Source: Alphaproteobacteria bacterium (GTDB taxonomy: Bacteria > Pseudomonadota > Alphaproteobacteria > UBA828). Taken from it: a DNA stretch of 64,000 bases. How positions within the stretch are numbered: the stretch's first letter is position 1; each line of letters opens with the position of its first letter. The notes below the pieces were generated by a model that saw only the letters and a program-made list of their open reading frames with translations, was not told the DNA's origin and did not search any database. The stretch is taken from the NCBI GenBank assembly GCA_963422645.2, contig CAXXVO010000007.1, positions 512,001 through 576,000 on the forward strand, read 5' to 3'. The position numbers were made by a program, and so were the translations under genes. Positions 1,608 through 47,889 of this stretch are shown in pieces.

Positions 1608-1740
1608 GACGAGGCCAATGGTAGCCTGCTTGCTTCGATGGGCGCGCAAGGAAAAACTCGGAAATGATAACGCCTGGATACCCCGGCGGGGCTACAATGA
1701 TCAGGACTGGCCGGGGCAACGCGCGGCGAGGGGAGTTGCG

Positions 1741-2919: not shown

Positions 2920-2939
2920 CGGGAACTTTCGGCGCTAGA

Positions 2940-2964
2940 GCGCGTCCGTTCTTGACGGACGCGC
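2940..2964. repeat. 10-bp-stem hairpin downstream of the cupin gene (possible terminator or REP-like element)
   Basis: GCGCGTCCGT-TCTTG-ACGGACGCGC, with no U-tract. Confidence 0.4.
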
Positions 2965-3283
2965 GACAGGCCGCGACCGCGGCCCGCCGCTTAGCGGCGC
3001 CCTCGCGCGCCCGCGCGCGTATCCTCGCGACGCGGAGGCGCCGGCCGTAGGCCGGCTGCCGTGAGCGACAAAGAAGCAGAGCGTTTCCGTGTAGAGATCC
3101 AATTACGAGACTTCATCGTGATAGAGGATGATTCAATTTTCGTAACTACCCAGGTACCCCAATCCTGAGTTGAGGACGGTGATTATGGCGGCGGCCGCGG
3201 CCTGGTTCTGCCACCGCGATTGGTTCTTGACCTCATAGAGTTGCGGGACTATGGACTGCTCTCTCGCGTGACGGGAGCGGTCC

Positions 3284-5484: not shown

Positions 5485-5864
5485 ACTTCTCCGGCTCATC
5501 CTGAGTATCGCTGTCCTCTCATCTTGTTCGCGACGCGGCGTTCATCATCCTCTCGCGCTCAAGAGAGTAGGCACCCCCGCGGCGTGGGGGCGTTGACGCA
5601 AAAGGAACTGGCTTGTTCCATAAGAGAGAGGGGGTACCTGGGCAGTTACCAATTTTCGATGGTCATACGTTACGATGTTGTTTTAACAGGTGATAGTTGG
5701 TATGTCGACTGTTTAGATAGGATTTTTGTAACTGCCCAGGTTCTTGCTGTGAAAATTCTCTGGGATTCGGCACAACGCTACCCACGCGACGCCCGTGTGC
5801 TCCTCTGGGGTCGCCGGGTTTCACAGCTCACGATGCCCCTCTTGCGGACTGCGACCGGTAAGCT

Positions 5865-6887
5865 CAGACTTCCTGACCTCGTGATGCTGGCTGTTCTGGG
5901 CAGCGTGCCGGGAACTCCTTGAATTCTGATACATTTCGGTTGTTTCAGGCGGTTTTTCGCTGGGTGTCGCGCCCGAGGTCTGATAGTATAATTTGATACC
6001 AATTGCACGGTCTCAACCATGCCCAGTACCCTCCCAATGTGCCCTCCAGAGGCGGTCTCGATCGGCAACAGCTGCTTCGCCGTCCTGATCTCGGACGACA
6101 CCTTCACCTACTTTTCCAACCTCATTCCCTTTGACAGCCACGCCGCCGATGACCGCACGGCCATGCTCTTGCGGATCGGCCGCCTCGCGGCGATCAGCGC
6201 GGTCTCGCCGCAGGAACTGGCTGACGCTTTCGCTGTCTCGCGCGCGACGGTGCAGCGCGCACGACGGCGCTACCTGGCCGAGGGCGAAGCGGGGTTCATG
6301 AAGCCCCGGCGCGGTCGCGGGCCGTCGGTGTTCACTCCGGAGTTGGCGGAGAAGGCGACGGCGTTGCTGGCATCGGGCCTGAGCGGCTCTGCGGCGGCCC
6401 GGGTTCTCGGCGTGTCAGCGCCATCGGTCAACAAGTGGCGCCGTCAGGGACTGATCGGCAACACGGAGGCGGATGGGGAGCCCGGACGCTCAGCGCTGGC
6501 TGCGCCGCCTGACGCGGGTGCGGCTCCTGAAGGCCGTGTCGATGAAGAGAGTACCGGTGCCCCGGGGCCGGAGACGGCGCCGGGGCTGGAAGCGCAGCCG
6601 CAAACGGATCGCAGCGCGCGCGATCGGCGGGACCGGCAGGCGCCGATGGGGCGTGCGACTTGCGATGTTCCGGCTCGGGTTCTGGCCAGTTGTGGCCTCC
6701 TGCGGGTCCACATTCTTGGCCTCGCAAACGACGCCTGCGACCGTTGGATCGATGCGGTTCTGAGCGACCTGAACGCCACCGAAACGGTCTTCCCCGGCAC
6801 CCGTCTGCGCATAGTCTACGACATCGACGGGGCCTCGGAATCCGCGCGGCTCGTGTCACCTAAAATCAGCAGAGGTCAGGAAGTCTG
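5865..6887 (+). mobile_element. Internally deleted, non-autonomous derivative of the CAGAC-ended IS at 54189-56702
   Basis: 16-bp perfect TIR CAGACTTCCTGACCTC; TSD AAGCT at 5860-5864 and 6888-6892; the empty site GGTAAGCTACC is present in IS66-B copy 2. Confidence 0.92.
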
Positions 6888-6888
6888 A
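6019..6888 (+). pseudogene. Transposase with the catalytic core deleted (N-terminal HTH region fused in frame to the C-terminus)
   Basis: Matches the N-terminus (MPSTLP...VLASCG) and C-terminus (LLRVHILG...RGQEV) of the transposase at 54188-56546, joined at a TGG microhomology. Confidence 0.88.
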
Positions 6889-7023
6889 AGCTACCCCGAT
6901 GTGGCCCGAAGTCCGCCCGCGCGACGGGCACCGATTTTCATTCTATGGGGTGGTCCAGCACGGCGTCGACCATGATCGTTTATGAGAATGGCTCCGCTGT
7001 TGGAGAACCCGTGCCAGGTGAGC

Positions 7024-8529
7024 TTACGCGCACTTGACGGTGGCGATGAGCCGATCCGATGGGCTGGTCAGGGCTTCGATGATATTCCAGCCCTGCTTTC
7101 TGGCGGTGGTGATGACGCTGCGCAGGATGGCGAAGTTCTCGGCCCCCTGCGCGGACCGGAAGCCCCCGGAGATCTTCTGGCGCAGCTTCATCATCCGAAG
7201 GTCGCGCTCGGCCTCGTTGTTCGTGAACCCGACCTCGAGGTCGATCAGGAACCGGAGCACCGCGCATTTGTGGTCGCGCAGCCTCAAGGCCGGATTGTGA
7301 CCGATCCTTCGCTTCCGGCGCTTCTTCCTCTTGCCAGGCGAGAACGGTGGTTGGCTCTCGTGAAAGGCCAGCGCATCGGCGATGATCTCGTCGTATCGGC
7401 GCTCGATCAGCGCCACAAGCCTCGCCGGAACGGCGATATCCTTGTCCAGCGCGATGCGGGCGGCGCGATTGGCTCGGCGCAGGAGCTGCTGCATCCGCCG
7501 GGCCCAAGCCTCCCCTTCGATGTCCACCAGCGCCTGCAACTCCCGCAGGTGATGGGCGTTGCACAGGCCGTGCTCCACCCCTTCCATCGCGAAGTACGGC
7601 TTCCAGTGATCGTGCACGACGATGCCGGAGACACCCGAGAGCAGGGCGCCGCGCTTGCCGCTGACCCGGTACGCCGCCAGCAGCGGCGTGCAGATCACAT
7701 GAAGCCACTGCGTCTGACCGCCGATCCGCAAGCCGGTCTCGTCCATGTGTTTCACCCGCGCCGTGCCCGCCGCCAGGTCCTGTATGTGCAAGGCCGCGTC
7801 CCGCAGCCGCTCGGCCGCCCTCTCGCTCATCGTCGCCAACGTCGCAGCCGTCACCGGCGCGCCGAAGAGCTCGGCCATCACCTGCGACAGCCGATCCTCC
7901 GGCAGGAAGTGAGCGTGCTGAAGGTAGACCGCCACCCCGGCAATGCGCGGGCCGTACTGCACCGGCGCCGACACCCCGTCGGGGAACGCCGCCCGGGTCA
8001 CCGTCCCGCAATGCCCGCAGCACTTGGCATGCGCCCGGTGCTCGGTCACCTCCAGGGGGCTCGGCTCGGGCAGATCGAACACCTGGCGGGCGACGGGCGT
8101 TCCCGCCCTGGCCGCGTCCGAAAGCGGCGAACCGCATCCCTTGCAGGAAGCCGGGACGTGATCCTTCACCCGATCCGGGTGATCGGCGCGGCGCAGCGTC
8201 TTGCCCTTGTGGCCGGGCTGGCCACCGGGCTTGCGGCCCGATTTGCCGCGCAGGCTTCGGGTTCGCCGCTTCGAATTCGGCTTCCTCAGCCCATCGCTCG
8301 AAGGCGGCTTGCCGCTGTTGCCGCTGTTGAGGCCGAGACGGCGCTCCAACTCCTCGATGCGCTCGACGAGACGCGCGACTTGCTCTTCCAGCCGCGCGTT
8401 CTGCTGCCGAAGCCAGGCATTTTCCTCCCGAAGCCGGGCGTTCTCCTCCTCCAGGCGGGCGATCTTCTGCGCGGGCGTTTCGGGCGCTGCTCCCGTCGAA
8501 GGGCCGCGCGGCGACTCGGGATTGCTCAT
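7024..8529 (-). CDS. IS66 family transposase
   Basis: NSGNSGKPPSSD, GGQPGHKG, HMDETG, CNAHHLRE, TNNEAERDLR; 501 aa intact. Confidence 0.93.
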   Translation of the reverse strand: MSNPESPRGPSTGAAPETPAQKIARLEEENARLREENAWLRQQNARLEEQVARLVERIEELERRLGLNSGNSGKPPSSDGLRKPNSKRRTRSLRGKSGRKPGGQPGHKGKTLRRADHPDRVKDHVPASCKGCGSPLSDAARAGTPVARQVFDLPEPSPLEVTEHRAHAKCCGHCGTVTRAAFPDGVSAPVQYGPRIAGVAVYLQHAHFLPEDRLSQVMAELFGAPVTAATLATMSERAAERLRDAALHIQDLAAGTARVKHMDETGLRIGGQTQWLHVICTPLLAAYRVSGKRGALLSGVSGIVVHDHWKPYFAMEGVEHGLCNAHHLRELQALVDIEGEAWARRMQQLLRRANRAARIALDKDIAVPARLVALIERRYDEIIADALAFHESQPPFSPGKRKKRRKRRIGHNPALRLRDHKCAVLRFLIDLEVGFTNNEAERDLRMMKLRQKISGGFRSAQGAENFAILRSVITTARKQGWNIIEALTSPSDRLIATVKCA

Positions 8530-8651
8530 GTCGTTGTTGAGTCATTTCCCGAAATTCCCGTCAAGCCCTTTCCACCAACTCCGAACGAGAAACGCCTCAA
8601 TCCACTGGCCCAAAATGACAAATCAGACGACCTGGGCAGTTACCATTTAAG

Positions 8652-10540
8652 GTAACTGCCCAGGTTCTTGCTGTGAAAATTCTCTGGGATTCGGCACAAC
8701 GCTACCCACGCGACGCCCGTGTGCTCCTCTGGGGTCGCCGGGTTTCACAGCTCACGATGCCCCTCTTGCGGACTGCGACCGGTAAGCTACCCCGATGTGG
8801 CCCGAAGTCCGCCCGCGCGACGGGCACCGATTTTCATTCTATGGGGTGGTCCAGCACGGCGTCGACCATGATCGTTTATGAGAATGGCTCCGCTGTTGGA
8901 GAACCCGTGCCAGGTGAGCTTACGCGCACTTGACGGTGGCGATGAGCCGATCCGATGGGCTGGTCAGGGCTTCGATGATATTCCAGCCCTGCTTTCTGGC
9001 GGTGGTGATGACGCTGCGCAGGATGGCGAAGTTCTCGGCCCCCTGCGCGGACCGGAAGCCCCCGGAGATCTTCTGGCGCAGCTTCATCATCCGAAGGTCG
9101 CGCTCGGCCTCGTTGTTCGTGAACCCGACCTCGAGGTCGATCAGGAACCGGAGCACCGCGCATTTGTGGTCGCGCAGCCTCAAGGCCAGATTGTGACCGA
9201 TCCTTCGCTTCCGGCGCTTCTTCCTCTTGCCAGGCGAGAACGGTGGTTGGCTCTCGTGAAAGGCCAGCGCATCGGCGATGATCTCGTCGTATCGGCGCTC
9301 GATCAGCGCCACAAGCCTCGCCGGAACGGCGATATCCTTGTCCAGCGCGATGCGGGCGGCGCGATTGGCTCGGCGCAGGAGCTGCTGCATCCGCCGGGCC
9401 CAAGCCTCCCCTTCGATGTCCACCAGCGCCTGCAACTCCCGCAGGTGATGGGCGTTGCACAGGCCGTGCTCCACCCCTTCCATCGCGAAGTACGGCTTCC
9501 AGTGATCGTGCACGACGATGCCGGAGACACCCGAGAGCAGGGCGCCGCGCTTGCCGCTGACCCGGTACGCCGCCAGCAGCGGCGTGCAGATCACATGAAG
9601 CCACTGCGTCTGACCGCCGATCCGCAAGCCGGTCTCGTCCATGTGTTTCACCCGCGCCGTGCCCGCCGCCAGGTCCTGTATGTGCAAGGCCGCGTCCCGC
9701 AAGCCGCTCGGCCGCCCTCTCGCTCATCGTCGCCAACGTCGCAGCCGTCACCGGCGCGCCGAAGAGCTCGGCCATCACCTGCGACAGCCGATCCTCCGGC
9801 AGGAAGTGAGCGTGCTGAAGGTAGACCGCCACCCCGGCAATGCGCGGGCCGTACTGCACCGGCGCCGACACCCCGTCGGGGAACGCCGCCCGGGTCACCG
9901 TCCCGCAATGCCCGCAGCACTTGGCATGCGCCCGGTGCTCGGTCACCTCCAGGGGGCTCGGCTCGGGCAGATCGAACACCTGGCGGGCGACGGGCGTTCC
10001 CGCCCTGGCCGCGTCCGAAAGCGGCGAACCGCATCCCTTGCAGGAAGCCGGGACGTGATCCTTCACCCGATCCGGGTGATCGGCGCGGCGCAGCGTCTTG
10101 CCCTTGTGGCCGGGCTGGCCACCGGGCTTGCGGCCCGATTTGCCGCGCAGGCTTCGGGTTCGCCGCTTCGAATTCGGCTTCCTCAGCCCATCGCTCGAAG
10201 GCGGCTTGCCGCTGTTGCCGCTGTTGAGGCCGAGACGGCGCTCCAACTCCTCGATGCGCTCGACGAGACGCGCGACTTGCTCTTCCAGCCGCGCGTTCTG
10301 CTGCCGAAGCCAGGCATTTTCCTCCCGAAGCCGGGCGTTCTCCTCCTCCAGGCGGGCGATCTTCTGCGCGGGCGTTTCGGGCGCTGCTCCCGTCGAAGGG
10401 CCGCGCGGCGACTCGGGATTGCTCATGTCGTTGTTGAGTCATTTCCCGAAATTCCCGTCAAGCCCTTTCCACCAACTCCGAACGAGAAACGCCTCAATCC
10501 ACTGGCCCAAAATGACAAATCAGACGACCTGGGCAGTTAC
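8652..10540 (-). mobile_element. IS66 element 'B', copy 2, in tandem with copy 1
   Basis: Same TIRs; separated from copy 1 by 8 bp (CATTTAAG); TSD GGATTTTT at 5720-5727 and 10541-10548 flanks the dimer. Confidence 0.92.
8920..10426 (-). pseudogene. IS66 transposase frameshifted by +1 near 9701 (real or a sequencing error)
   Basis: TCCCGCAAGCCG here versus TCCCGCAGCCG in copy 1; the ORF is split into 8876..10426 and 8920..9702. Confidence 0.85.
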
Positions 10541-10749
10541 GGATTTTTTAGAACGTATAGGACAGAATTTATTTCGGGGAGACAGTTGCATTGGGGTGTC
10601 AGATGAGTGCGTGTGAGAGTATGGCCGACGTGGGTTATGGTATCCAATGGATAGGTGCCATTTGATATATATTTGGGAATTCTTACGATTTCGGTCGAAT
10701 TTGAGGGTAATCTATACGGTATTGGGACGACGGACGACGGGGCACGGAC

Positions 10750-11070
10750 ATGGCGGGTCCGGGGGGCGAGAAGCGGAAGCGGCGCTGCGTGATGGCGACC
10801 GATGCGGAGTGGTCGCGGATGCGCGGGAAGGCGCAGGAGGAAGGGACGTCGTGCTCGGAATTCATCGTGCGGCGCTGCCTGGCCGACGGGACGCCCGCCG
10901 CGCAGGCGCCCGCCTTGCAGGTGCCTGAGCTGCGCCACATTGCGCGCTCGGTGCTGGCGCTGGGGGATATGGAGCGGCTGCGGTCGATCGGGGAGGGCTC
11001 CGAGGGGGACTGGAACGCGGCGCTCGAGCGGGCCGATCGCTGGCTTGACGGAGAGACCTCTCTGGGGTGA
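10750..11070 (+). CDS. Ribbon-helix-helix (MobC/CopG-like) protein 1
   Basis: KRRCVMATDAEWSRMRGKAQEEGTSCSEFIVRRCL fits the beta-alpha-alpha RHH pattern. Confidence 0.65.
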   Translation: MAGPGGEKRKRRCVMATDAEWSRMRGKAQEEGTSCSEFIVRRCLADGTPAAQAPALQVPELRHIARSVLALGDMERLRSIGEGSEGDWNAALERADRWLDGETSLG

Positions 11071-11083
11071 TCGGTAGGGCGCG

Positions 11084-11413
11084 GTGAGACTCGCGAAGCA
11101 GCGCGGCATCCACTGCACGCCGGAGAAGTGGGAGCGGATCCGGCGGCGCGCCCGGAAGAACAACGAGACGATCTCGCGCTTCGGCGAGCTCTGCTGCCGG
11201 CGCGCGGCGGAAGCGTTGGGCGCGCCACCGTCAGTGCCGCCGGGCCATCCGCTGGCGCTGCCCGAGGACGACCAGCGGCGCCTGCTGGCGCACAGTCTTG
11301 CGGTGCAGCGCAGGACACGTGTTTCGATCCGGGCGCCGGGGGGAGAGCGCGTCGACCTGCCGCTCGACGCGGTGATCCGCTTCCTGCTGCTGTGCGAGGA
11401 GGAGGGCAATTGA
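11084..11413 (+). CDS. Ribbon-helix-helix (MobC/CopG-like) protein 2
   Basis: RGIHCTPEKWERIRRRARKNNETISRFGELCC. Confidence 0.6.
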   Translation: MRLAKQRGIHCTPEKWERIRRRARKNNETISRFGELCCRRAAEALGAPPSVPPGHPLALPEDDQRRLLAHSLAVQRRTRVSIRAPGGERVDLPLDAVIRFLLLCEEEGN

Positions 11414-11862
11414 GCAAGCCGAGAAAGAAGCCGCCCGCGCGCAAGGAGTCGCGCGGGAGGACGTACACGATCTCGTGCACCGACGAGCAGTGGGCGGCGA
11501 TTCAGGACGGAGCGGAGCGGGCCGGCAAGAATGTCTCGACGTGGTTCGTCGAGTGCGCGCTGACCGTGGACCCATGGCCCAGGAAGCACCGCCGGCTGGT
11601 GCTGAACGAGAGGGAGCAGCGCCGCCACGCGCGGGCGGTGGCGGTGAGCGCCCGGAACCTCGGCGCGGACGAGGCGGACGGAGCCGGCGATGTTGGGGCC
11701 GAACTCAGGGCGCTCATGGCCGCGCGGCTGCGCGGGATGGACCGGCGCGGCCGGCGCGAGAACGCGCTGGCGCTGCTGCGCCGGGCGTTCGGCGACGATG
11801 CGGCGCAAACCGTCACCGCGGCGTTCATACCGGACGCGCTGTTGAGCGGCGTGGAAAAGTGA
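11410..11862 (+). CDS. Ribbon-helix-helix (MobC/CopG-like) protein 3, 3' end replaced by an IS21 end
   Basis: TTG start overlaps the previous TGA; TYTISCTDEQWAAIQDGAERAGKNVSTWFVECAL; last codons lie in the IS21 IRL from 11840. Confidence 0.6.
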   Translation: MSKPRKKPPARKESRGRTYTISCTDEQWAAIQDGAERAGKNVSTWFVECALTVDPWPRKHRRLVLNEREQRRHARAVAVSARNLGADEADGAGDVGAELRALMAARLRGMDRRGRRENALALLRRAFGDDAAQTVTAAFIPDALLSGVEK

Positions 11863-12025
11863 CCCCCTATTGGAGATGCCGTAATGGGGCTTGGCGCCGG
11901 CGTGCAGCGTCTCGGCCTGTCGCGATGACGGCGAATCGGTTGTCGTTGCCCTTACACGCGTAGCGTGTTCACGGGGTCTTGCCGCAAGGCGCGCCCCAAT
12001 TCCTCTGGAGGAAAGGGCAACGACA

Positions 12026-13066
12026 ATGGACGTCTGTATCGGGCTGGATGTATCGCTGGCAAGCACGGCGGTTTGCGTTCTCGACGAGAAGGGCAAGATC
12101 GCGACCGAGGCGCAGGTCGCCAGCACGCCTGAAGCGCTGGTTGGGTTCCTGCACAAGCTGCCGCACGAGATCACCGCGATCGGTCTCGAGGCCGGTCCCT
12201 TGTCCCACTGGTTGCACAAGGGAATGACCGACGCCGGCTTCGAGGCCGTGTTGATGGAGACCCGGCAGGTAAAGGGTGCGCTGAAGGCCATGCCGATCAA
12301 GACCGATCGCCGGGACGCCGAGGGCATCGCACGGCTGTTGCTGATGGGGTGGTTTCGGCCGGTGCACTGCAAGTCGGTGTCATCGCAAGAGATGCGAGCC
12401 CTCCTGACCTCGCGCAAGTCCGTGCTGGACGCGATCATCCGCCTGGAGGTCTCGCTGCGCGGCGTCCTGCGTAACTTTGGCCTGAAGCTGGGCCTGATCT
12501 CGAAGGGCCGCTATGAGGCCCGAGTGCGGGAGTTGGTCGCCGGCAACGCGATGCTGGAAGCGGCAGCCGAACCGATCCTGGGCGCGCGGGCGGCCCTGCG
12601 CCGCGAGTTCGCCGAGCTGGAGAAGCTGGTCCGCACTCTGGCAAGGCAAGACAGGGCATGCCGCCTGTTGATGACCATGCCGGGCGTGGGGCATGTCATA
12701 GCCCTGACCTTCAAGTCCGCGATCGACGACCCGGAGCGGTTCCGAAGATCGAAGGATGTCGGCCCCTGGGTAGGGCTGACGCCGGCGCGGGAGCAGTCCG
12801 GGGAGAGGGATATTGTCGGCCGGATCACCAAGGCCGGCGATGCCGGTCTGCGCGCGGCTCTTTACCAAGCCGCAACGGTGATGCTGAACCGCACAGGGCC
12901 GAACTGGCTGAAGGCTTGGGCGCTACGTTTGGCGAAGCACAGGGGCAAGAAGCGCGCGACCGTTGCCTTGGCCCGGCGCATCGGTGTTGTGCTTCACCGA
13001 ATGTGGCGGGATGGAACCGAGTTCCGCTTTACGCGCGAGGAAGCGATGGCGCTTCGGACGGCATAG
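12026..13066 (+). CDS. IS110 family DEDD recombinase/transposase
   Basis: IGLDVS, GLEAG, KTDRRDA, MPGVG, GLTP..QSGE (catalytic Ser), ALARR. ATG at 12026. Confidence 0.95.
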   Translation: MDVCIGLDVSLASTAVCVLDEKGKIATEAQVASTPEALVGFLHKLPHEITAIGLEAGPLSHWLHKGMTDAGFEAVLMETRQVKGALKAMPIKTDRRDAEGIARLLLMGWFRPVHCKSVSSQEMRALLTSRKSVLDAIIRLEVSLRGVLRNFGLKLGLISKGRYEARVRELVAGNAMLEAAAEPILGARAALRREFAELEKLVRTLARQDRACRLLMTMPGVGHVIALTFKSAIDDPERFRRSKDVGPWVGLTPAREQSGERDIVGRITKAGDAGLRAALYQAATVMLNRTGPNWLKAWALRLAKHRGKKRATVALARRIGVVLHRMWRDGTEFRFTREEAMALRTA

Positions 13067-13129
13067 GCGCGGCTGCATCCCATCGGCAGTCAGCGAGGAG
13101 AGGAGGAAAGAGCCGCGCCTGAAGGTGGG

Positions 13130-13330
13130 CGAGCCACCAACGTCCCCTCGCCGGGACGCGGTCCCCGATGATGCACGTGGGCCCACTTGTTTGCCGAACC
13201 GGCCTGTCGTGTTCGAGCACGCTGTGGAGATAGGCACTCGGGAACCGATTTGGACTGGGCATGATGTTGGCAGCCGATGCGCTGACCACGGACAGAAGCG
13301 AGAACCCGGCGAAGGACACAAGACGTTGAG
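13130..13330 (+). ncRNA. Predicted seekRNA/bridge RNA of the IS1111-type element (boundaries approximate)
   Basis: GGGCCCACTT (13179-13188) and TGGAGA (13225-13230) match the target; GGCAT (13258-13262) and ACAGA (13292-13296) match the donor junction. Confidence 0.7.
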
Positions 13331-13534
13331 CAAGCGCGAGATCGATACGGTCGGCCCCATTGCACCTGACACCGGCAACCTCCTCCGCGCCTCACCCGGC
13401 GCCTCATAGCCAGGCCGAAGGAGCCCCTACACCACGCCAGGAAAACAACTGATTGGCGCGACAATGATCTATTGAAAATCGAGCTTGACGGGAAACGCCC
13501 CATTACAGAAGTGGGCCCCTGGGGTCGGACAGTT

Positions 13535-14688
13535 TCATGCGGCGGTTTTGACCGGGGTGCGGGGTTGTTTCTCCTCGAAGCGGTTGGGGCTCAGGTATCC
13601 GAGGGCGGAGTGTAGGCGTCTCTCGTTGTAGCTGTCGATGAAGCGGGGCAGGTGCTCCGCCACGTCTTCCGCGCTCTCGAGGGCCATGGGATAGACGCCC
13701 TCGACCTTCAGGGTCTTCATGAAGCTTTCCATCATGGCGTTGTCGTAGGGGTTGCCGCGCCGGCCCATCGAGCCGACCAGGCCGTGTTCGTCGAGCAGGG
13801 CCCGGTAGGCCTGGGCGGCGTATTGCGAGCCCCTGTCGGAGTGGTGGATGCAGCCGGGTGGCGGGTTGCGGCCCTCGATCGCCGTCGCCAGCGCCGCAAG
13901 GGTTAGCCGGGCATCGATCCGCCGGCCGAGGGCGTAGCCCACGATGCGCCGCGACCACGCATCCATGATCGCCGCCAGATAGACGAAGCCGCCCAGGATC
14001 GCGATGTAGGTCAGATCGGCGACCCAGAGCTGGTTCGGACCATCGACATCGCGCTCCCTGGAGCGGTCCGGGAAGACGGGCTCGTCGTGGTCGCTGTCGG
14101 TGGTGGCGACGAAGCGGCGCCGGCAGGGCGGATGCAGCGCGTGCTCGCGCATCAGGCGCTTGATCTTCTTGTGGTTCACCACCCAGCCGCGATGCCTCAG
14201 CGCCGCCTGCATGCGCCGCCAGCCGTAGGCTTCGAACTCATCCTTGATCGCGTGCATGGCCTCCACCAGCGCGGTGTCGTCTGCCGAGCCCTTGGGCTTG
14301 TCGTAGTAAGTAGAATGCGCGATCCCCATCAGTCGGCATCCTTCGGCGACGGAGAGGCCTTGGGGCCGGTGATGACGGACATGGGCGCGTTTCTCGGCCG
14401 GCGTCCTTGCCGCTGAGCCCCCTTTAGAAACTCGAGCTCCAGGGCCTGCTTGCCGACCAGGCGCTCGAGCGCCGCGATCCGGGCCTCGTATTCCTGGATC
14501 GTGTCGGCCGCCTCGGCGTCCTCGTCGAAGGCGCCGGCCTCGTACTTGTCCACCCAGATCCGGATCAGGGTGCGGGAGAGCTCGTGCCGACGGGCCAGGC
14601 CGTGCAGCGTCTCGCCGGCGAGATACTCCTGAACGACCTGGCGCTTGAACGCGATGCCGTGGGTGCGGTGGGTTCGGTGCTTTGCCAT
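13535..14688 (-). CDS. IS3 family transposase OrfAB (OrfA 14329..14688; OrfB ends 13535; probable -1 frameshift)
   Basis: OrfA HTH; OrfB WVADLTY, HHSDRGSQY, DNAMMESF DDE motifs; slippery-like TTTCTAAAGGGGG on the minus strand at 14418-14430. Confidence 0.92.
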
Positions 14689-14763
14689 GGGCGTCGATCC
14701 TTCGAATGCCCGGTGCACCGGTCAAATAAATTCAAGCCACCTGTCCGGCCCCAGGGGCCCACT

Positions 14764-16396
14764 TCTGTAATGGGGCGTTTCCCGTCAAGCTCGATTTTCA
14801 ATAGATCATTGTCGCGCCAATCAGTTGTTTTCCTGGCGTGGTGTAGGGGCTCCTTCGGCCTGGCTATGAGGCGCCGGGTGAGGCGCGGAGGAGGTTGCCG
14901 GTGTCAGGTGCAATGGGGCCGACCGTATCGATCTCGCGCTTGCTCAACGTCTTGTGTCCTTCGCCGGGTTCTCGCTTCTGTCCGTGGTCAGCGCATCGGC
15001 TGCCAACATCATGCCCAGTCCAAATCGGTTCCCGAGTGCCTATCTCCACAGCGTGCTCGAACACGACAGGCCGGTTCGGCAAACAAGTGGGCCCACGTGC
15101 ATCATCGGGGACCGCGTCCCGGCGAGGGGACGTTGGTGGCTCGCCCACCTTCAGGCGCGGCTCTTTCCTCCTCTCCTCGCTGACTGCCGATGGGATGCAG
15201 CCGCGCCTATGCCGTCCGAAGCGCCATCGCTTCCTCGCGCGTAAAGCGGAACTCGGTTCCATCCCGCCACATTCGGTGAAGCACAACACCGATGCGCCGG
15301 GCCAAGGCAACGGTCGCGCGCTTCTTGCCCCTGTGCTTCGCCAAACGTAGCGCCCAAGCCTTCAGCCAGTTCGGCCCTGTGCGGTTCAGCATCACCGTTG
15401 CGGCTTGGTAAAGAGCCGCGCGCAGACCGGCATCGCCGGCCTTGGTGATCCGGCCGACAATATCCCTCTCCCCGGACTGCTCCCGCGCCGGCGTCAGCCC
15501 TACCCAGGGGCCGACATCCTTCGATCTTCGGAACCGCTCCGGGTCGTCGATCGCGGACTTGAAGGTCAGGGCTATGACATGCCCCACGCCCGGCATGGTC
15601 ATCAACAGGCGGCATGCCCTGTCTTGCCTTGCCAGAGTGCGGACCAGCTTCTCCAGCTCGGCGAACTCGCGGCGCAGGGCCGCCCGCGCGCCCAGGATCG
15701 GTTCGGCTGCCGCTTCCAGCATCGCGTTGCCGGCGACCAACTCCCGCACTCGGGCCTCATAGCGGCCCTTCGAGATCAGGCCCAGCTTCAGGCCAAAGTT
15801 ACGCAGGACGCCGCGCAGCGAGACCTCCAGGCGGATGATCGCGTCCAGCACGGACTTGCGCGAGGTCAGGAGGGCTCGCATCTCTTGCGATGACACCGAC
15901 TTGCAGTGCACCGGCCGAAACCACCCCATCAGCAACAGCCGTGCGATGCCCTCGGCGTCCCGGCGATCGGTCTTGATCGGCATGGCCTTCAGCGCACCCT
16001 TTACCTGCCGGGTCTCCATCAACACGGCCTCGAAGCCGGCGTCGGTCATTCCCTTGTGCAACCAGTGGGACAAGGGACCGGCCTCGAGACCGATCGCGGT
16101 GATCTCGTGCGGCAGCTTGTGCAGGAACCCAACCAGCGCTTCAGGCGTGCTGGCGACCTGCGCCTCGGTCGCGATCTTGCCCTTCTCGTCGAGAACGCAA
16201 ACCGCCGTGCTTGCCAGCGATACATCCAGCCCGATACAGACGTCCATTGTCGTTGCCCTTTCCTCCAGAGGAATTGGGGCGCGCCTTGCGGCAAGACCCC
16301 GTGAACACGCTACGCGTGTAAGGGCAACGACAACCGATTCGCCGTCATCGCGACAGGCCGAGACGCTGCACGCCGGCGCCAAGCCCCATTACGGCA
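14764..16396 (-). mobile_element. IS110 family, IS1111-type element, copy 2 (inverted)
   Basis: Reverse complement of 11877-13509, same length, identical transposase translation. Confidence 0.9.
15207..16247 (-). CDS. IS110 family DEDD recombinase/transposase
   Basis: Identical translation to 12026..13066. Confidence 0.95.
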   Translation of the reverse strand: MDVCIGLDVSLASTAVCVLDEKGKIATEAQVASTPEALVGFLHKLPHEITAIGLEAGPLSHWLHKGMTDAGFEAVLMETRQVKGALKAMPIKTDRRDAEGIARLLLMGWFRPVHCKSVSSQEMRALLTSRKSVLDAIIRLEVSLRGVLRNFGLKLGLISKGRYEARVRELVAGNAMLEAAAEPILGARAALRREFAELEKLVRTLARQDRACRLLMTMPGVGHVIALTFKSAIDDPERFRRSKDVGPWVGLTPAREQSGERDIVGRITKAGDAGLRAALYQAATVMLNRTGPNWLKAWALRLAKHRGKKRATVALARRIGVVLHRMWRDGTEFRFTREEAMALRTA

Positions 16397-16493
16397 TCTC
16401 CATATTGGGGGTGATCGGCGTCCAAAATTGCCCCCCCCTGGATTTGTGTCCATGAACACACCTCGTCGTTTGGACGGACGAGGTGGGGGGGAG

Positions 16494-17402
16494 ATGCTGG
16501 TTGTGGAAACGATCGCGAAGATCCGTCGGGATCGTCTGGTGAAGGGCGTTCCGATCAAGAAGCTCGCCCGGGATTTGAGGGTTTCCAAGAACACGATACG
16601 CAAGGTGGTTCGGGGCGATGCGACCTCGCACAGCTACGCGCGCAAGATCCAGCCGATGCCGAAGCTTGGGCCGTGGGTCGACGAGCTCGAGCGCCAGCTG
16701 GAGGCCAACGAGAAGAAGAAGCGCCGGGATCGCCTGTCCCTGCTGCAGATCCATGAGGACCTTGGCGAGCTGGGCTACAAGGGCGGCTATGATGCGGTCC
16801 GGCGCTACGCCAAGGCGTGGCGGCGCCGGCGCCGTCTGTTATCGCCGTCGCAGGCCTATGTGCCGCTGATCTTCGACCCTGGCGAGGCCTACCAGTTCGA
16901 CTGGAGCCATGAGTACGCGCGTCTGGCGGGTGCGACGACCAAGGTGAAGGCGGCGCACATGCGGCTCTGCCACAGCCGGATGTATCTGGTCCAGATCTTT
17001 CCCCGCGAGAGCCAGGAGATGGTGTTCGAGGCACATGAACGTGCCTTCCGCCTCTTCGGCGGGGTCTGCCGGCGGGGCATCTACGACAACATGAAGACGG
17101 CGGTGAACACGATCTTCGTCGGCAAGAAGCGGGACTACAACCGCCGCTTCCAGGAGATGTGTTCGCACCATCTGATCGAGCCTGTGGCGTGCACGCCAGG
17201 GGCGAGCTGGGAGAAGGGGCAGGTTGAGAAGCAGGTGGGAGACCTTCGTGGGCGTCTGTTCGCGCGCAGCCCGCGGGGCCGCTCCTACGCCGAGATCAAC
17301 GAGTGGCTGATGGATCGGTGCATAGAGGAGGCCAAGAAGCAGCCGCATCCGACGATCCCGGGCAAAACGGCGCGAAGATGGAAACAAAAAGGAGTGGAGT
17401 GA
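16494..17402 (+). pseudogene. istA: Truncated IS21 transposase IstA
   Basis: Nearly identical to 47890..49404 up to HPTIPGKT, then diverges at ~17371. Confidence 0.88.
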
Positions 17403-17757
17403 GTCATGGGATGGGGTGGGTTGCTTTGGTTCCTGATTAAGCGTGATATTACTGGTAGTTGTGGATTGGTGCAAGAGGATTGTGGTGGTGGTGGGCTGAT
17501 GTAAGAGAGGGGAGTCTTGGAGGGGTGAGTTGCATTCTGGGAAGTAAATACGTATGTCTGAGTAGATGGATCTGTCTGAGTGGAGGGCATGCGGTGGATT
17601 TGCGTTTGGATAGAAGCGATAAGGCGCTGAGCTGGAGAGACGTATCGGGATGGGGATGGGTTATTTGCATTATAAGGGGTGGTGCAGGTGATTTTGACAA
17701 GAATGCGGGTCCGGTGAGCTGCGTCAGGCTTGGCTGCAAGGTTCTCGGGGCGCAATC

Positions 17758-17809
17758 ATGAGCCGCAGGCCGGCGGAGCGCCGCACCCAGCACGCGGTCA
17801 TGGCGACGG
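17758..17809 (+). pseudogene. 5' stub of an RHH gene paralogous to 10750..11070, cut by element 'C'
   Basis: MSRRPAERRTQHAVMAT versus MAGPGGEKRKRRCVMAT. Confidence 0.45.
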
Positions 17810-17959
17810 TGAGCGCGCGCGGTCTTTCAGCGGGGATCGGGGCCTGATCCGCTCGGATTTGTTGAGGTTTTGGGGCGGGTGCCCCTCGGCGAACTTGCAA
17901 GAAGTTCGCCGGGGGGCTTTGTCTCGTGGTGACGGTCACAATCGCCAGAGACGGCCCCA

Positions 17960-18577
17960 ATGTCGCACAACATTTTCCGCCACTCCATGCTTTGCAACGC
18001 CCTGGTCTGGGCCTGGCTGCGCGAGGTCGATGAGGCCGAGGCGGCGCGCTGCCGCGAGGCGGGCTGCCGACACTGCCCCGGCAAGCTGCACAGCGCGACG
18101 TATCCGCGCAAGCCGTACGGTCTGGCAGCCGAGTTGAGGGAAGAGGGCACGCGGCGGTTCAGCTTCTGCTGCGCGGATTGCCGCCTGCGAGCGACCCCAC
18201 CATCGGTACGATTCTTCGGGCGCCGCTTTTATCTGGGCGCCCTGTTCGTTCTGTTGAGTGCACTGGTTCTGAGAGGCGGGGTGCGGTTGCAGACGATCAA
18301 GCGGAAGTGGGGGGTCTCGGTCGCCACACTGCGCCGCTGGCGGAAGTGGTGGCTGGAGGCGTTCCCGGCGACGGAGCCCTGGGGAGCGAAGCGTGGCGAA
18401 CTGGTGATGCCACCCGAGGAGGTGCCGCTGCTCTTCGTGCTGCGGCAGATGCGGGGCGGACGCTTCGGTGAGCGTCTGTTCCTGAGCCTGATCTGGTTCA
18501 AGCCGTGGACGGGCTATTGCGGGCTCGGCGATGGCTCGGCGCCGCCCGCAGAAAGTGTTCCTGTCACGCCCGGATAG
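17960..18577 (+). CDS. Cys-rich (Zn-finger-like) + HTH accessory protein of transposon 'C'
   Basis: CRHC...CCADC and an HTH-like segment GVSVATLRRWRKWW; identical to 44507..45124. Confidence 0.7.
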   Translation: MSHNIFRHSMLCNALVWAWLREVDEAEAARCREAGCRHCPGKLHSATYPRKPYGLAAELREEGTRRFSFCCADCRLRATPPSVRFFGRRFYLGALFVLLSALVLRGGVRLQTIKRKWGVSVATLRRWRKWWLEAFPATEPWGAKRGELVMPPEEVPLLFVLRQMRGGRFGERLFLSLIWFKPWTGYCGLGDGSAPPAESVPVTPG

Positions 18578-18626
18578 GGCGTTCTACATGGGCATCTCTC
18601 CGATGCGGCGAGGGAGGGATGCCGGA

Positions 18627-19444
18627 ATGGACAAGGACGACGCAGGCGCCAGGCGCGAGAAGTGGGCCCGGCTGCGCTTTGCGGTGGTGGGGCCGCTTCT
18701 GGCTTCACCGCCGCCTGCAGGCCAGCTGGGGGCCGAGTTCGAGCGTCTGTCGCAGCGCGACTGGGAGCACCCGTCGGGCAAGGGGCCGGTGCGCTTTGCG
18801 GCCTCGACGATCGAGCGCTGGTACTACCGGGCGCGGGCAGAGGAGCAGGACCCGGTCAAGGCGCTGCGCCGGAAGCCTCGGACCGACGTCGGCCGCGAGC
18901 GGTCCATGTCGGCGGGGCTGATCGCGGCGCTGCGCGAGCAGTACCGGGTCCATCCCTCGTGGGCGGCGCAGCTCCACTACGAGACCCTCAAGGCTCATGT
19001 TGCGACCCATCCCGAGCTCGGCCCGATGCCGTCCTACGCGACGCTGACGCGGGCGATGCGCAATCGCGGCCTGGTGCGCGAGCGCCCCAGGAAGTGGCAC
19101 GAGGGTGAGGACAAGCCGGCGGTCGAAGCCCGCGAGGTCCTTAGCTACGAGGTGTCTCGCAGTCACGCGCTGTGGCACGGGGACTTCCACCACGGCAAGC
19201 GCCGCGTGCTGACGGCGTCGGGCGAATGGCAGACGCCCATCCTGCTCGGCTTCCTCGACGACCACTCCAGGCTTGGCTGCCACCTGCAGTGGTACCTGGA
19301 GGAGACCGCCGAGGTCTTCGTCCACGGGCTCTGTCAGGCCTTCATGAAGAGGGACTTGCCCAGGTCCCTGCTGACCGACAACGGCGGGCCGATGACGGCG
19401 GGCGAGGTCGAGGAGGGCTTGCACCGCCTCGGCATCGTGGGGGC
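18627..19444 (+). pseudogene. Truncated rve/IS481-like DDE integrase
   Basis: LWHGDFH, FLDDHSR, LLTDNG; lacks the NGKIE glutamate region; fused to a CAGAC-IS end. Confidence 0.85.
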
Positions 19445-19550
19445 GCGACACCCAGCGAAAAACCGCCTGAAACAACCGAAATGTATCAGAATTCAAGGAG
19501 TTCCCGGCACGCTGCCCAGAACAGCCAGCATCACGAGGTCAGGAAGTCTG
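19441..19550 (-). mobile_element. Isolated left-end fragment of the CAGAC-ended IS
   Basis: Matches 56593-56702 and ends GAGGTCAGGAAGTCTG. Confidence 0.88.
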
Positions 19551-19841
19551 AGATTACAGTGCCAGTCGGCGTCGAGCCCGCTTGCCGAACAACAGCGTGA
19601 CGCCCATCGCGGGACTCGAGGCCTGAATGCGGCCCGATCGTACCGGGCTCCCACGCCACTTCGCCTTGTGGGACTCCATTCATTCTGCTAAATTCCACAT
19701 CATGGCAGTGAACTGTCATCAATTGATGTTGTTCGCAACGCAACTTCTACCGAACTGTCGATCCGAAAAACAGGCAGACTAAGATAAGAACAACCACACT
19801 GCGTTGCTCGCTTAACGACAAGAATTTCGGGGAGGCTAGCA

Positions 19842-20990
19842 ATGAACATTGGGAAAAGGAAGAATGTACTGGTCGCCGGTCTGTTGGCGGTTTCCGCAAC
19901 AATGCTTGCGTTTTCTTCGGATAGTGGAGCTGAAGAATCGAGCTTGACGCCAGAACTCAGGGCTGAACTTCAGGCGTTGATAGACAGCTACCGGGGCGAG
20001 CCGGAGTTCGAGGCACCGGGAGATCCGATCGACATCAAGGCCGCTCTCGGCGGCAAGTTGATCTATGGAATCTCGGTGACGAGTGCCAATCCCTTTACCG
20101 AGGGTATTTACTCCAGCATCCGCGAACTCGAACCGATCATCGGCTTCGAGTTCAAGGACTGGCAGAATCAGGGATCGCTGGCCGAGCACCAGCGGGGGAT
20201 CAGCCAGGCCATCACCGATGGTGCTGCGATCATCGATCTTACCGGGGGCTCGGACCCGCGGCTCTTGGGTCCTCAACTTGCGGAAGCTCGCGAAGCGGGA
20301 ATCAAGGTGATGGATTCTCACGCGTCCGGCCTGACCCAGGGTATCTCGGCCAATGTCGACGCGACAGTGGGAGCGCCCTACGAAGTGTGTGGCCTCCTGC
20401 AAGCGGCATATACCGCGTTGCACTCCGAGGGCAATGCGCATGTGCTGATCATCAAGTCCGACGAGATCACGGGATCGCCGGTTCAGACCAAGGCTATCGT
20501 GGACGGGCTGGATAAGTACTGCCCGAACTGCAAGGTCTCGATTGCGAACGCGACCGTGGCGCAATGGGCGACGACAGTGCCTGCCGCGGTGCGGGGCGCG
20601 ATGTTGGCCGACCCGGAGCTGAACTACATCCTGCCGCTCTACGATCCGGAAACGCCCTACATCGTTCCGGTCCTCAGGCAATTGGCGGATCCCGGTACGG
20701 TTCACGTCGTCACCTATGCGGGGACGCCGTCGGTTCTCGATGAGATTGCCAAAGGCGACTACGTCCTGATGGATGTGGGCGAGAGCAACAAGCACATCGG
20801 ACTGTCACTCATTGACCTGGCCGCGCGACTCATGCTCGGTGAAGAAAGGCCCTCGGTCGATAGGAAGATACCGATGCGCATTTGGGATTCTTCGAACGTG
20901 GCCGAAGGCGGTACTCCCGCAGCGTACGGCGTTGGCTATGGGGATAAGGTCAGGCAAGGGTTCTTCAAGCTGTGGGGCCTCGAAGAATAA
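19842..20990 (+). CDS. Sugar-type (ribose family) ABC substrate-binding protein
   Basis: Signal peptide and periplasmic binding protein type I features; first gene of an ABC operon. Confidence 0.8.
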   Translation: MNIGKRKNVLVAGLLAVSATMLAFSSDSGAEESSLTPELRAELQALIDSYRGEPEFEAPGDPIDIKAALGGKLIYGISVTSANPFTEGIYSSIRELEPIIGFEFKDWQNQGSLAEHQRGISQAITDGAAIIDLTGGSDPRLLGPQLAEAREAGIKVMDSHASGLTQGISANVDATVGAPYEVCGLLQAAYTALHSEGNAHVLIIKSDEITGSPVQTKAIVDGLDKYCPNCKVSIANATVAQWATTVPAAVRGAMLADPELNYILPLYDPETPYIVPVLRQLADPGTVHVVTYAGTPSVLDEIAKGDYVLMDVGESNKHIGLSLIDLAARLMLGEERPSVDRKIPMRIWDSSNVAEGGTPAAYGVGYGDKVRQGFFKLWGLEE

Positions 20991-47770: not shown

Positions 47771-47889
47771 TGTTGTTAAGCGTGGAAAAGTGACCCCCTA
47801 TTGGGGGTGATCGGCGTCCAAAATTGACCCCCTTGGATTTGTGTCCATGAACACACCTCGTCGTTTGGACGGACGGGGTGGTGGGGGAG

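What the first reader, a model, noticed from the sequence alone, without database searches (positions are those of the whole stretch)
11871..16402. IS1111-type element occupies both terminal inverted repeats of one IS3 element
Seen: two 1633-bp IS110-family copies in inverted orientation. Removing each, with the AGA core counted once, restores the IS3 TIR TGGAGA|AGTGGGCCCCTGGGGYCGGACAG at both ends, with TG...CA tips and a TAT target duplication. Both insertions are at the same TIR position and in the same orientation relative to the TIR. Known: IS4321/IS5075 (IS1111 group) target Tn21-family TIRs. Inference: this element is specialised on an IS3-family end, a target class I do not recall being described. 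It would inactivate its host IS by separating the tip from the transposase-binding region, possibly reversibly on excision.
Basis: partly seen in the sequence, partly recalled or inferred. Interest (0 to 1): 0.85.

Follow-up and report, generated by a model that had tools for sequence, protein, structure and literature searches.

The report
RNA-guided IS1111 element in IS3 ends
A small mobile element of the RNA-guided IS110/IS1111 kind has landed, in mirror image, in both ends of another mobile element (an IS3-family insertion sequence), and its own guide RNA spells out that end, so this is a real but fairly ordinary new example of one jumping gene that specialises in disabling another.

Summary
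The structure is real. Two identical IS1111-family elements sit inverted at 11874-13509 (+) and 14764-16399 (-), inside the two terminal inverted repeats (TIRs) of one 1260-bp IS3-family element that is flanked by a TAT duplication.

Vacant IS3 ends, 3 in this genome and 17 of 20 in relatives, read TGG|AGTGGGCCCC, not TGGAGA|AGTGGG. The element is therefore 1636 bp. It has the IS1111-typical 7-bp left and 3-bp right extensions, and the shared core is AG.

All 6 identical copies in the genome follow TGG. The 4 copies with an intact right end are followed by the IS3 TIR.

The 3' non-coding region holds two short blocks in a predicted internal loop. One is complementary to TIR bases 4-12. The other is identical to bases 1-5 plus the first two bases of the IS. 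Across 9 guide types in relatives, these two blocks change together with the flanks. That is the published seekRNA/bridge-RNA logic.

Precedents exist: IS4321/IS5075 in Tn21-family TIRs, IS1383 in the inverted repeats of IS1384, and ISEc21 in IS3-family transposase genes. This is therefore a new member of a known kind.

Extra finding: the IS3 itself often sits in the ends of an IS21-family element present at about 68 loci, which gives three-tier nesting.

The parts
11846..11867 (.). Outer part of the left terminal repeat (IRL) of an IS21-family element, into which the IS3 inserted
   Evidence: Matches the outer half of the uninterrupted IRL of the intact IS21-like copy at window ~47773-47830. 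69 uninterrupted copies of this site exist in the genome.
11868..11870 (.). TAT, left copy of the 3-bp target duplication made by the IS3
   Evidence: Read. The uninterrupted IS21-like IRL has a single TAT at this place.
11871..11873 (.). TGG, outermost 3 bp of one IS3 TIR, cut off from the rest of the TIR
   Evidence: Vacant IS3 ends read TGG directly followed by AGTGGGCCCC.
11874..13509 (+). IS1111-family element, copy 1 (1636 bp). 7-bp left extension 11874-11880; left subterminal inverted repeat 11881-11892; right subterminal repeat 13495-13506; 3-bp right extension 13507-13509.
   Evidence: Limits set by comparison with vacant targets. Six copies, 99.9-100% identical over the length each retains (two of them altered at the right end), lie in the genome.
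12026..13066 (+). Transposase/recombinase gene of copy 1 (346 aa, DEDD type)
   Evidence: Pfam PF01548 and PF02371. NCBIfam NF033542, 241 bits. The C-terminal domain matches ISCro4 (9t56) and IS621 (8wt6) chains. The translation contains GLTPAREQSG.
13145..13315 (+). Predicted seekRNA/bridge-RNA region in the 443-bp 3' non-coding region (13067-13509) of copy 1
   Evidence: RNAalifold consensus of 12 relatives, with two stems closing an internal loop that carries the two variable blocks. 96.6% of cells are paired, with little compensatory change.
13179..13187 (+). Guide block 1 (GGGCCCACT), complementary to TIR bases 4-12 (AGTGGGCCC) of the top strand
   Evidence: The block differs in each relative and follows that relative's right flank.
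13222..13231 (+). Guide block 2 (CTGTGGAGAT). Its last 7 bases equal TIR bases 1-5 plus the first 2 bases of the IS.
   Evidence: The block differs in each relative and follows that relative's left flank.
13510..14763 (-). Body of the IS3-family element: inner TIR parts 13510-13532 and 14741-14763; orfB frame 13535-14398; orfA 14329-14688
   Evidence: Pfam rve/HTH_21 and HTH_Tnp_1. NCBIfam NF033516, 299 bits. The orfA start was fixed.
14764..16399 (-). IS1111-family element, copy 2, the mirror image of copy 1 (transposase gene 15207-16247; predicted seekRNA region 14958-15128)
16400..16402 (.). CCA, outermost 3 bp of the other IS3 TIR
16403..16405 (.). TAT, right copy of the IS3 target duplication
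16406..17399 (+). Inner part of the IS21-like IRL, followed by a truncated istA-like gene (16494-17399)
   Evidence: Pfam rve. 91% amino-acid identity to 68 istA loci in the genome. The IRL was compared with the intact copy.

Best explanation
A 1636-bp insertion sequence of the IS1111 branch of the IS110 family is directed by its own non-coding RNA (seekRNA, also called bridge RNA) to the first 12 bp of the terminal inverted repeat of one group of IS3-family elements (TGGAGTGGGCCC).

It integrates between base 3 and base 4, always with its transposase-proximal end next to the TGG tip. Both IS3 ends carry the same 12 bp in inverted orientation. Two independent integrations therefore produced the mirrored pair seen here.

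Shown:
- the anatomy;
- the recurrence of the same junctions at several loci and in other genomes;
- the match of two guide blocks in the 3' non-coding region to the two halves of the target;
- the co-variation of these blocks with the flanks in relatives.

Inferred:
- the RNA is made and bound by the recombinase;
- transposition runs through a circle with abutted ends;
- the IS3 is immobilised because its cleavage tip is 1.6 kb away from the transposase-binding part of its TIR.
For: 1. Family assignment. The transposase matches both IS110-family Pfam domains and NCBIfam NF033542 'IS110 family RNA-guided transposase'.

2. IS1111 hallmarks listed in PMC11187229 (sections 4 and 6) are all present.
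- Subterminal inverted repeats: 10 bp perfect, or 12 bp with 1 mismatch.
- Extensions of 7 bp on the left and 3 bp on the right, once the limits are set against vacant targets.
- A long non-coding region downstream of the gene: 443 bp, against 152 bp upstream.
- A 346-aa protein that contains the GL-P----SG motif.

3. Flanks in this genome.
- 6 of 6 identical copies have TGG on the left, and 4 of 6 have AGTGGGCCCCTGGGG on the right.
- The outer flanks and the IS3 variants differ between the C8, C11 and C18 loci. This points to at least 4 separate integrations.

4. Guide blocks.
- An alignment with 85%-identical relatives shows a conserved non-coding region in which only two blocks are swapped.
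- Over 17 complete, distinct insertions of 9 guide types, cognate guide and flank agree at a mean of 4.76 of 7 positions on the right and 4.12 of 6 on the left. The 238 non-cognate pairings give 1.63 and 1.22.
- The order of the blocks (top-strand complement first) and their overlap at the core are as described for IS1111-family seekRNAs (PMC11187229 section 9).
- Both blocks lie on opposite strands of one internal loop in the consensus fold.

5. Unbiased retrieval by the guide motif.
- It found 1 further genome, the same as G011, and 3 metagenome contigs.
- All 3 readable right flanks are the IS3 TIR, and the one readable left flank ends in TGG.

6. A possible donor-binding position also co-varies. 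The non-coding region reads ACAGAAG where the right extension is AGA (2 sequences) and ACGGAAG where it is GGA (10 sequences).
Against: - No RNA, circle junction or transposition event was observed.
- Rfam has no matching family at E <= 1.
- The single-sequence fold of 13145-13315 is no more stable than shuffles (z = -0.5; 66 of 200 shuffles fold at least as well) and differs from the consensus fold.
- The two helices that close the guide loop are almost invariant, so they carry no compensatory support.
- Some cognate pairs score low. L016 and L033 have their block-1 register shifted by an indel. The right flank of L008 is a tandem second copy. L034 scores 3 of 7 and 2 of 6.
- Four exact 12-bp targets in this genome are vacant.
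- Public contigs could not confirm the long inverted arrangement.
- The circle-junction promoter that I can read (TTGACG, 17 nt, then a hexamer made of the last 2 and first 4 bases of the IS) matches only 3 of 6 in its -10 part. The integrated copy has no consensus promoter.
Confidence: 0.9

Rival explanations
1. The junctions are real, but the mirrored two-copy arrangement around one IS3 is an assembly error, caused by collapse or mis-joining of repeated IS copies.
For: - The arms are 1662 nt and nearly identical, and the genome has 6 copies.
- Public contigs laid on the stretch are short pieces. The short side of each junction piece is only 27-30 letters, below the tool's 31-letter rule, and the raw-read run gave no reads.
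Against: - The contig is 872 kb and resolves about 68 copies of a 2.5-kb IS21-like element. This speaks for long reads.
- The 1208-nt centre is not palindromic, and its two TIRs differ at one base.
- Outside the pair, the two halves of one IS21-like IRL and the TAT duplication fit together exactly.
- A second locus, C3:192710, has the same outer flanks and looks like a deletion derivative of the same structure.
Confidence: 0.05
2. The recombinase protein alone recognises the target, or a DNA structure of the GC-rich TIR makes it a hot spot. The matching blocks in the non-coding region would then be coincidental.
For: - No RNA was observed.
- GGGCCC is palindromic, so one block could match by chance on either strand.
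- Thermodynamic and compensatory support for the fold is weak.
Against: - The two blocks change together with the flanks in 9 guide types, while the protein stays about 85% identical at the DNA level.
- The same pattern is visible in a 73%-identical relative on a Leisingera plasmid, read by eye.
- The RNA requirement has been shown experimentally for four IS1111-family members (PMC11187229 abstract and section 7).
Confidence: 0.04
3. The nesting is the other way round: the IS3 inserted into a pre-existing pair of IS1111 copies.
For: None beyond the formal possibility.
Against: - The IS3 tips TGG and CCA, and the IS3-type 3-bp duplication, lie outside both IS1111 copies.
- Uninterrupted IS3 copies with a contiguous TIR exist.
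- IS1111 copies never occur without the TGG tip.
Confidence: 0.01

Closest known systems
[quoted passage not shown]
   Same: Same IS family features: subterminal repeats, a 3' non-coding region, and one fixed position and orientation inside the terminal repeat of another transposable element. Both ends of the host element can therefore be hit in mirror image.
   Different: The host element here is an IS3-family insertion sequence, not a Tn3-family transposon. The target is the outermost 12 bp, and the cut lies 3 bp from the tip. I saw the Partridge & Hall 2003 paper only as a title in reference lists; the paper is not held.
IS1383 (IS110 family), which integrates into the inverted repeats of IS1384 (IS5 family) in Pseudomonas putida H
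   Same: An IS110-family element whose specific target is the inverted repeat of another insertion sequence.
   Different: The host IS family differs (IS5 against IS3). I saw only the title of Mueller, Lauf and Herrmann 2001 in a reference list, and the family labels in one table row of PMC5141477. Position, orientation and guide could not be compared.
ISEc21 (IS110 family), whose target lies in IS3-family transposase genes
   Same: An RNA-guided IS110-family element that lives inside IS3-family elements (PMC11187229 section 12 passage). A sister of the present element (guide type D: L014 in G004, with left ends at L023 and L040 in G013) likewise splits the IS3 orfA after its 7th base.
   Different: [quoted passage not shown] The present element is of the IS1111 branch and hits the TIR.
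ISEc11, ISKpn4, ISPst6 and ISPa11 seekRNAs, and the IS621 bridge RNA
   Same: Two short guide segments match the two strands of the target and overlap at the insertion point. Natural reprogramming occurs between close relatives (PMC11187229 sections 9 and 10; PMC11208160 section 12 passages).
   Different: Those RNAs were shown biochemically; here the RNA is only predicted. Their targets are a short linear site, attC sites and REP sequences.

Membership tests
IS1111 family (branch of IS110 in ISfinder) | DEDD (RuvC-like) N-terminal domain plus the PF02371 C-terminal domain | tested here: met
   PF01548 at 1.5e-16 and PF02371 at 7.4e-24. NF033542 scores 241 bits against a cutoff of 140.
IS1111 family (branch of IS110 in ISfinder) | [quoted passage not shown] | tested here: met
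   11881-11892 against 13495-13506: 10 bp perfect, or 12 bp with 1 mismatch.
IS1111 family (branch of IS110 in ISfinder) | Terminal extensions of 7 bp (left) and 3 bp (right) beyond the repeats, with no target duplication | tested here: met
   Against vacant targets reading TGG|AGTGGG, the insert is AGATGCC + repeat ... repeat + AGA, 1636 bp in all.
IS1111 family (branch of IS110 in ISfinder) | The longer non-coding region lies downstream of the transposase gene | tested here: met
   443 bp downstream (13067-13509) against 152 bp upstream (11874-12025).
IS1111 family (branch of IS110 in ISfinder) | Transposase of 330-350 aa with the GL-P----S(t)G motif | tested here: met
   346 aa. The translation contains GLTPAREQSG. 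The criterion comes from PMC11187229 section 6.
IS1111 family (branch of IS110 in ISfinder) | Placement of the transposase inside the IS1111 clade of a family tree | not tested
The only solved relatives, ISCro4 and IS621, match the C-terminal domain alone.
IS1111 family (branch of IS110 in ISfinder) | Circular intermediate with abutted ends that creates a promoter | not testable with these tools
   A conserved TTGAC(G/A) lies 17 nt before the last two bases of the right end in this element and in its relative. The -10 part that would form matches 3 of 6 by my count. No joints were seen in public contigs.
seekRNA / bridge-RNA guided recombination | [quoted passage not shown] | tested here: met
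   Block 1 at 13179-13187 and block 2 at 13222-13231. Co-variation with flanks across 9 guide types. Both blocks lie on one internal loop of the consensus fold.
seekRNA / bridge-RNA guided recombination | The RNA is expressed, is bound by the recombinase and is required for movement | not testable with these tools
   No RNA run held more than 0.08 of the sampled words. No RNA run was laid.
seekRNA / bridge-RNA guided recombination | A second (donor-binding) loop matches the element's own ends | tested here: inconclusive
   One position co-varies with the right extension: A with AGA in 2 sequences, G with GGA in 10. The 2 sequences are close kin, so this is one event. The fold of this part is not secure.
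IS3 family (the host element) | orfA (HTH) and orfB (DDE, rve) in the -1 frame, TG...CA tips and a 3-bp duplication | tested here: met
   Pfam. NF033516 scores 299 bits. Tips TGG and CCA and the TAT duplication are read. An A-AAG-GGG heptamer lies in the orfA/orfB overlap, read by me.

The most novel reading that the evidence does not exclude
This is not one odd insertion but a lineage of RNA-guided IS1111 elements that keeps retargeting other mobile DNA.

Within about 85% DNA identity, guide variants sit in the following places:
- the IS3 TIR (this element);
- codon 3 of the same IS3's orfA (type D);
- an ORF with integrase-core and Mu-transposase C-terminal domains (type B);
- next to an IS66-type transposase domain (type G);
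- a TrwC relaxase ORF (type F).

The IS3 host in turn prefers the ends of an IS21-family element present at about 68 loci. This would be a three-level chain of mobile elements that parasitise and silence one another, with the top level reprogrammable by a few base changes. It would be a natural 'anti-transposon' guide system that could benefit the host cell.
Probability: 0.25. Interest if true: 0.6.

Novelty: new member of a known kind. Interest (0 to 1): 0.4.

Why it matters
The finding adds an IS3-family terminal repeat to the short list of natural targets of RNA-guided IS110/IS1111 recombinases.

It also gives a clean natural series of reprogrammed guides: 9 types within one close lineage, with their cognate sites. 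Such a series is useful for working out the guide code of the IS1111 branch, which is less studied than IS621.

It shows how a site-specific element can find a safe harbour that is repeated and harmless to the host, while probably freezing its host IS.

It does not open a new class. Elements of this family that land in the terminal repeats of transposons and of another IS family have been in print for about two decades.

Tried and rejected
- Rfam scan of 11000-17500 at E <= 1: no family matched.

- Single-sequence RNA fold of 13145-13315: not more stable than shuffles. I therefore do not use thermodynamic stability as evidence.

- Public reads. Contigs of runs X1, X2 and X6 cover the IS and touch both junction types, but only 27-30 letters lie on the short side. 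No joints (empty site or circle) were reported, and raw-read run X21 gave 0 laid reads. This is no test of the inverted structure, of excision or of expression.

- Plasmid collection search with the whole structure. Only distant hits came back (70-74% identity): an IS3 relative in Bradyrhizobium barranii and IS110-family genes in Leisingera, Paracoccus and Sulfitobacter. None of them showed this nested structure.

- Promoter and terminator scan of 11800-13620: nothing found.

- The idea that C3:192710 is an independent 'TGG + IS1111' transposon flanked by ATA: rejected. Its outer flanks are the same as at the window locus (97% over 2.6 kb). I read it as a copy of that locus that lost the IS3 and one IS1111 at a CCA microhomology.

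- The idea that the IS3 copy truncated at C7:231960 ends at the type-D target: the break lies 3 nt away from that site, and I did not pursue it.

- Literature.
  - Searches found no paper that describes an IS110/IS1111 element in an IS3-family TIR. The library lacks most subscription journals, ISfinder and TnPedia.
  - Supplementary files were not opened. The target logos for more than 300 IS in the supplements and code repository of PMC11187229 may already include such a target.
  - Partridge & Hall 2003 is not held.

- What I read of each paper.
  - PMC11187229: abstract, sections 4, 6, 7, 9 and 13, and passages found by term search.
  - PMC11208160 and PMC13626964: passages found by term search.
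  - PMC5141477: one table passage.
  - Mueller et al. 2001 and Partridge & Hall 2003: titles only.

Full report
WHAT IS THERE

The window region 11868-16405 is a nested set of insertion sequences. The repeat finder reports one inverted repeat with arms 11871-13532 and 14741-16402 (1662 nt), with 1208 nt between the arms. Reading, the arms differ at a single base (13525 T against C at the mirrored position).

Each arm carries a 346-codon gene, at 12026-13066 (+) and 15207-16247 (-). Both match the two IS110-family Pfam domains and NCBIfam NF033542 'IS110 family RNA-guided transposase' (241 bits, cutoff 140). The C-terminal domain matches the solved ISCro4 and IS621 recombinases.

Between the arms lie orfA (14329-14688, -) and orfB (frame 13535-14398, -) of an IS3-family element. 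Outside the arms are TGG and CCA, and beyond these a TAT on each side.

WHERE THE ELEMENT REALLY BEGINS AND ENDS

The genome says otherwise.
- Uninterrupted relatives of this IS3 at C5:89527-90780 (93.5% identical, both ends vacant) and C7:230786 (99%, one end present) read TGG directly followed by AGTGGGCCCC.
- The exact 12-mer TGGAGTGGGCCC occurs at 4 vacant places in the genome.
- In loci fetched from other genomes I found 22 distinct ends of this TIR type. Twenty are vacant. Seventeen of those 20 have TGG immediately before AGTGGG, and none has TGGAGA.
- A 73%-identical IS3 relative on a Bradyrhizobium barranii plasmid starts the same way.

The inserted DNA is therefore 1636 bp (11874-13509 and 14764-16399). 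Its structure is AGATGCC, then a subterminal repeat (GTAATGGGGC, 10 bp perfect or 12 bp with one mismatch), then the body, then the inverted copy of that repeat, then AGA. Only AG is common to the two junctions.

This is exactly the architecture given for the IS1111 family in PMC11187229 (sections 4 and 6). That architecture has subterminal repeats, extensions of 7 bp on the left and 3 bp on the right, no target duplication, a long non-coding region downstream of the gene (here 443 bp), a 330-350-aa transposase and a GL-P----S(t)G motif (here GLTPAREQSG).

IS THE SITE SPECIFIC?

BLAST of the element against the whole assembly gives six copies at 99.9-100% identity over the aligned length.
- All six have TGG on the left.
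- Four have AGTGGGCCCCTGGGG on the right: the two in the window, C11:61106 and C18:202917.
- One (C8:417734) lacks its last 7 bp. One (C3:192710) departs from the others in its last 4 bases.
- The C11 and C18 copies sit in different IS3 variants with different outer flanks. At least four integrations are therefore independent.

Outside this genome:
- A copy with the same guide in another species of the genus (G011, locus L045) and a contig start in G010 (L046) are followed by the same TIR.
- Left ends preceded by TGG occur in G001, G009 and G010.

A retrieval that does not depend on the flank, scanning for the guide motif, found only the G011 record among species-representative genomes and three metagenome contigs. 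The two metagenome contigs with a readable right flank show the IS3 TIR, and the one with a readable left flank shows TGG. I found no copy of this guide type at any other kind of site.

HOW THE TARGET IS CHOSEN

The genome also holds relatives about 85% identical in DNA (C8:627089, C16:189298). These have the same ends but other flanks. In the alignment the non-coding region is conserved, except for two short blocks that are swapped wholesale.

In the window element:
- Block 1 (13179-13187, GGGCCCACT) is the reverse complement of TIR bases 4-12.
- Block 2 (13222-13231) ends in TGGAGAT, which is TIR bases 1-5 plus the first two bases of the IS.

In the C16 relative the same two positions spell that element's own right and left flanks.

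I extended this to relatives found in 19 of 61 related genomes. That gave 17 complete, distinct insertions with 9 guide types. Rows lacking one flank were dropped (L005, L006, L009, L018, L021, L045, L047). Cognate guide-flank pairs agree at a mean of 4.76 of 7 positions on the right and 4.12 of 6 on the left. The 238 non-cognate pairings give 1.63 and 1.22.

The weak cognate rows have explanations, except one. In L016 and L033 an indel shifts the register. In L008 the 'right flank' is a tandem second copy. L034 simply matches poorly.

The order of the blocks, and their overlap at the shared AG, are what PMC11187229 section 9 describes for IS1111-family seekRNAs. 'Natural reprogramming' between close relatives is described there too.

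In an RNAalifold consensus of 12 relatives, the two blocks lie on the two strands of one internal loop closed by conserved stems.

The limits of this evidence:
- The stems are nearly invariant, so they give no compensatory support.
- The single-sequence fold is not unusually stable.
- Rfam has no model for it.
- No RNA was observed.

A second conserved domain (about 13249-13302) contains ACAGAAG where the right extension is AGA, and ACGGAAG where it is GGA. This may be the donor-binding part, but it rests on one evolutionary change.

CONSEQUENCES (INFERENCE)

The 12-bp target lies wholly inside the IS3 TIR. It is therefore offered twice, in inverted orientation, by every IS3 copy, which explains the mirrored pair.

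The insertion leaves only 3 bp of the TIR attached to the flank. IS3-family transposases bind the inner TIR and cleave at the terminal CA (established knowledge of the family, not tested here). The IS3 should therefore be unable to move, although its orfA, orfB and an A-AAG-GGG slippery heptamer look intact.

The TAT duplication outside the TGG and CCA tips shows that the IS3 arrived intact and that the IS1111 copies came later. Their mutual 100% identity says this was recent.

Whether excision restores the IS3 is open. IS621 excision regenerates the target (PMC13626964 passages). For the IS1111-family member ISEc11, however, the empty site was not detected (PMC11187229 section 7).

COMPARISON WITH WHAT IS KNOWN

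- IS4321 and IS5075 target the Tn21-family TIR.
- IS1383 targets the inverted repeats of IS1384. I saw this as a title only. IS1384 is listed as IS5 family.
- ISEc21 targets a conserved stretch of IS3-family transposase genes.

Five full-text searches found no report of an IS110/IS1111 member in an IS3-family TIR. ISfinder, most subscription journals and all supplements were out of reach. I therefore rate this as a new member of a known kind, not a new target class.

OTHER THINGS SEEN

1. A sister element (guide type D) splits the orfA of the same IS3 group after its seventh base. It was found as L014 in G004, with left ends at L023 and L040 in G013.

2. Other guide types sit in the following places:
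- an ORF with integrase-core and Mu-transposase C-terminal domains;
- next to an IS66-type domain;
- a TrwC relaxase ORF;
- one AtzD/TrzD-like ORF.
These are single observations, and several flanks gave no Pfam match.

3. The IS3 itself has a favoured site. In this genome all 7 ends of the close IS3 group, from 5 insertions, abut the motif TGACCCC(C)-NNN. This motif is the terminal repeat region of an IS21-family element that has 68 istA loci, 69 uninterrupted left-end sites and 72 uninterrupted right-end sites.
- The window IS3 sits in such a left end. The truncated istA at 16494-17399 belongs to that element.
- The same kind of flank is seen at the Bradyrhizobium copy and at 6 of 20 vacant ends in relatives (judged by eye). 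It is a preference, not a rule.
- The result is a three-tier nest: IS21-like, IS3 inside it, IS1111 inside that.

VERDICT

The mechanism is the published seekRNA/bridge-RNA one, with good comparative support. Novelty is modest.

Noticed in passing
window 11846-11870 and 16403-16440; intact copy at window ~47773-50322; G000:C5:89490-90820: The IS3 element itself sits again and again in the terminal repeat region of an abundant IS21-family element, just after TGACCCC(C). That element has 68 istA loci, 69 uninterrupted left-end sites and 72 uninterrupted right-end sites. All 7 ends of the close IS3 group in this genome are at such sites, as are 6 of 20 vacant ends in relatives and a Bradyrhizobium plasmid copy. 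This gives three-tier nesting: IS21-like, then IS3, then IS1111.
   Followed up: partly
L014 (G004:C1:4870252-4874696), L023 and L040 (G013:C1): A sister IS1111 element about 85% identical, with a different guide, is inserted after the 7th base of orfA of the same IS3 group. Its guide block 1 matches the orfA sequence of the window's IS3 at 9 of 9 positions.
   Followed up: partly
L007 (G000:C16), L016 and L033 (G011), L032 (G020): Other guide types of the lineage sit in ORFs with integrase-core plus Mu-transposase C-terminal domains, in a TrwC relaxase ORF, and next to an IS66 leucine-zipper domain. One sits in an AtzD/TrzD-like ORF. Several targets of the lineage are therefore mobile-element genes.
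   Followed up: partly
G000:C3:192710-194341: A copy with the same outer flanks as window copy 2, but lacking the IS3 and the second IS1111. The junction falls at a CCA shared by the subterminal repeat and the IS3 tip, so it looks like a deletion derivative of a duplicate of the window locus.
   Followed up: partly
G000:C8:627089-630308: A tandem pair of the 85% relative. A full copy is followed directly by a second copy that lacks its first 56 bases. I did not explain how this arose.
   Followed up: no
window 1-20000: The first 20 kb of the window is a graveyard of mobile elements: IS66-family transposase ORFs (3712-5484; 8876-10426), a NikA-like ORF (11128-11862) that runs into the IS21-like end, and a further rve-domain ORF (18531-19691).
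   Followed up: no
G000:C6:185890-185901: One exact copy of the 12-bp target lies outside any recognisable IS3 TIR and is vacant.
   Followed up: no
L053 (Leisingera thetidis plasmid NZ_CP109789.1, 130559-133549): A 73%-identical IS1111-type relative with the same end architecture. Read by eye, its two guide positions again resemble its own flanks.
   Followed up: partly
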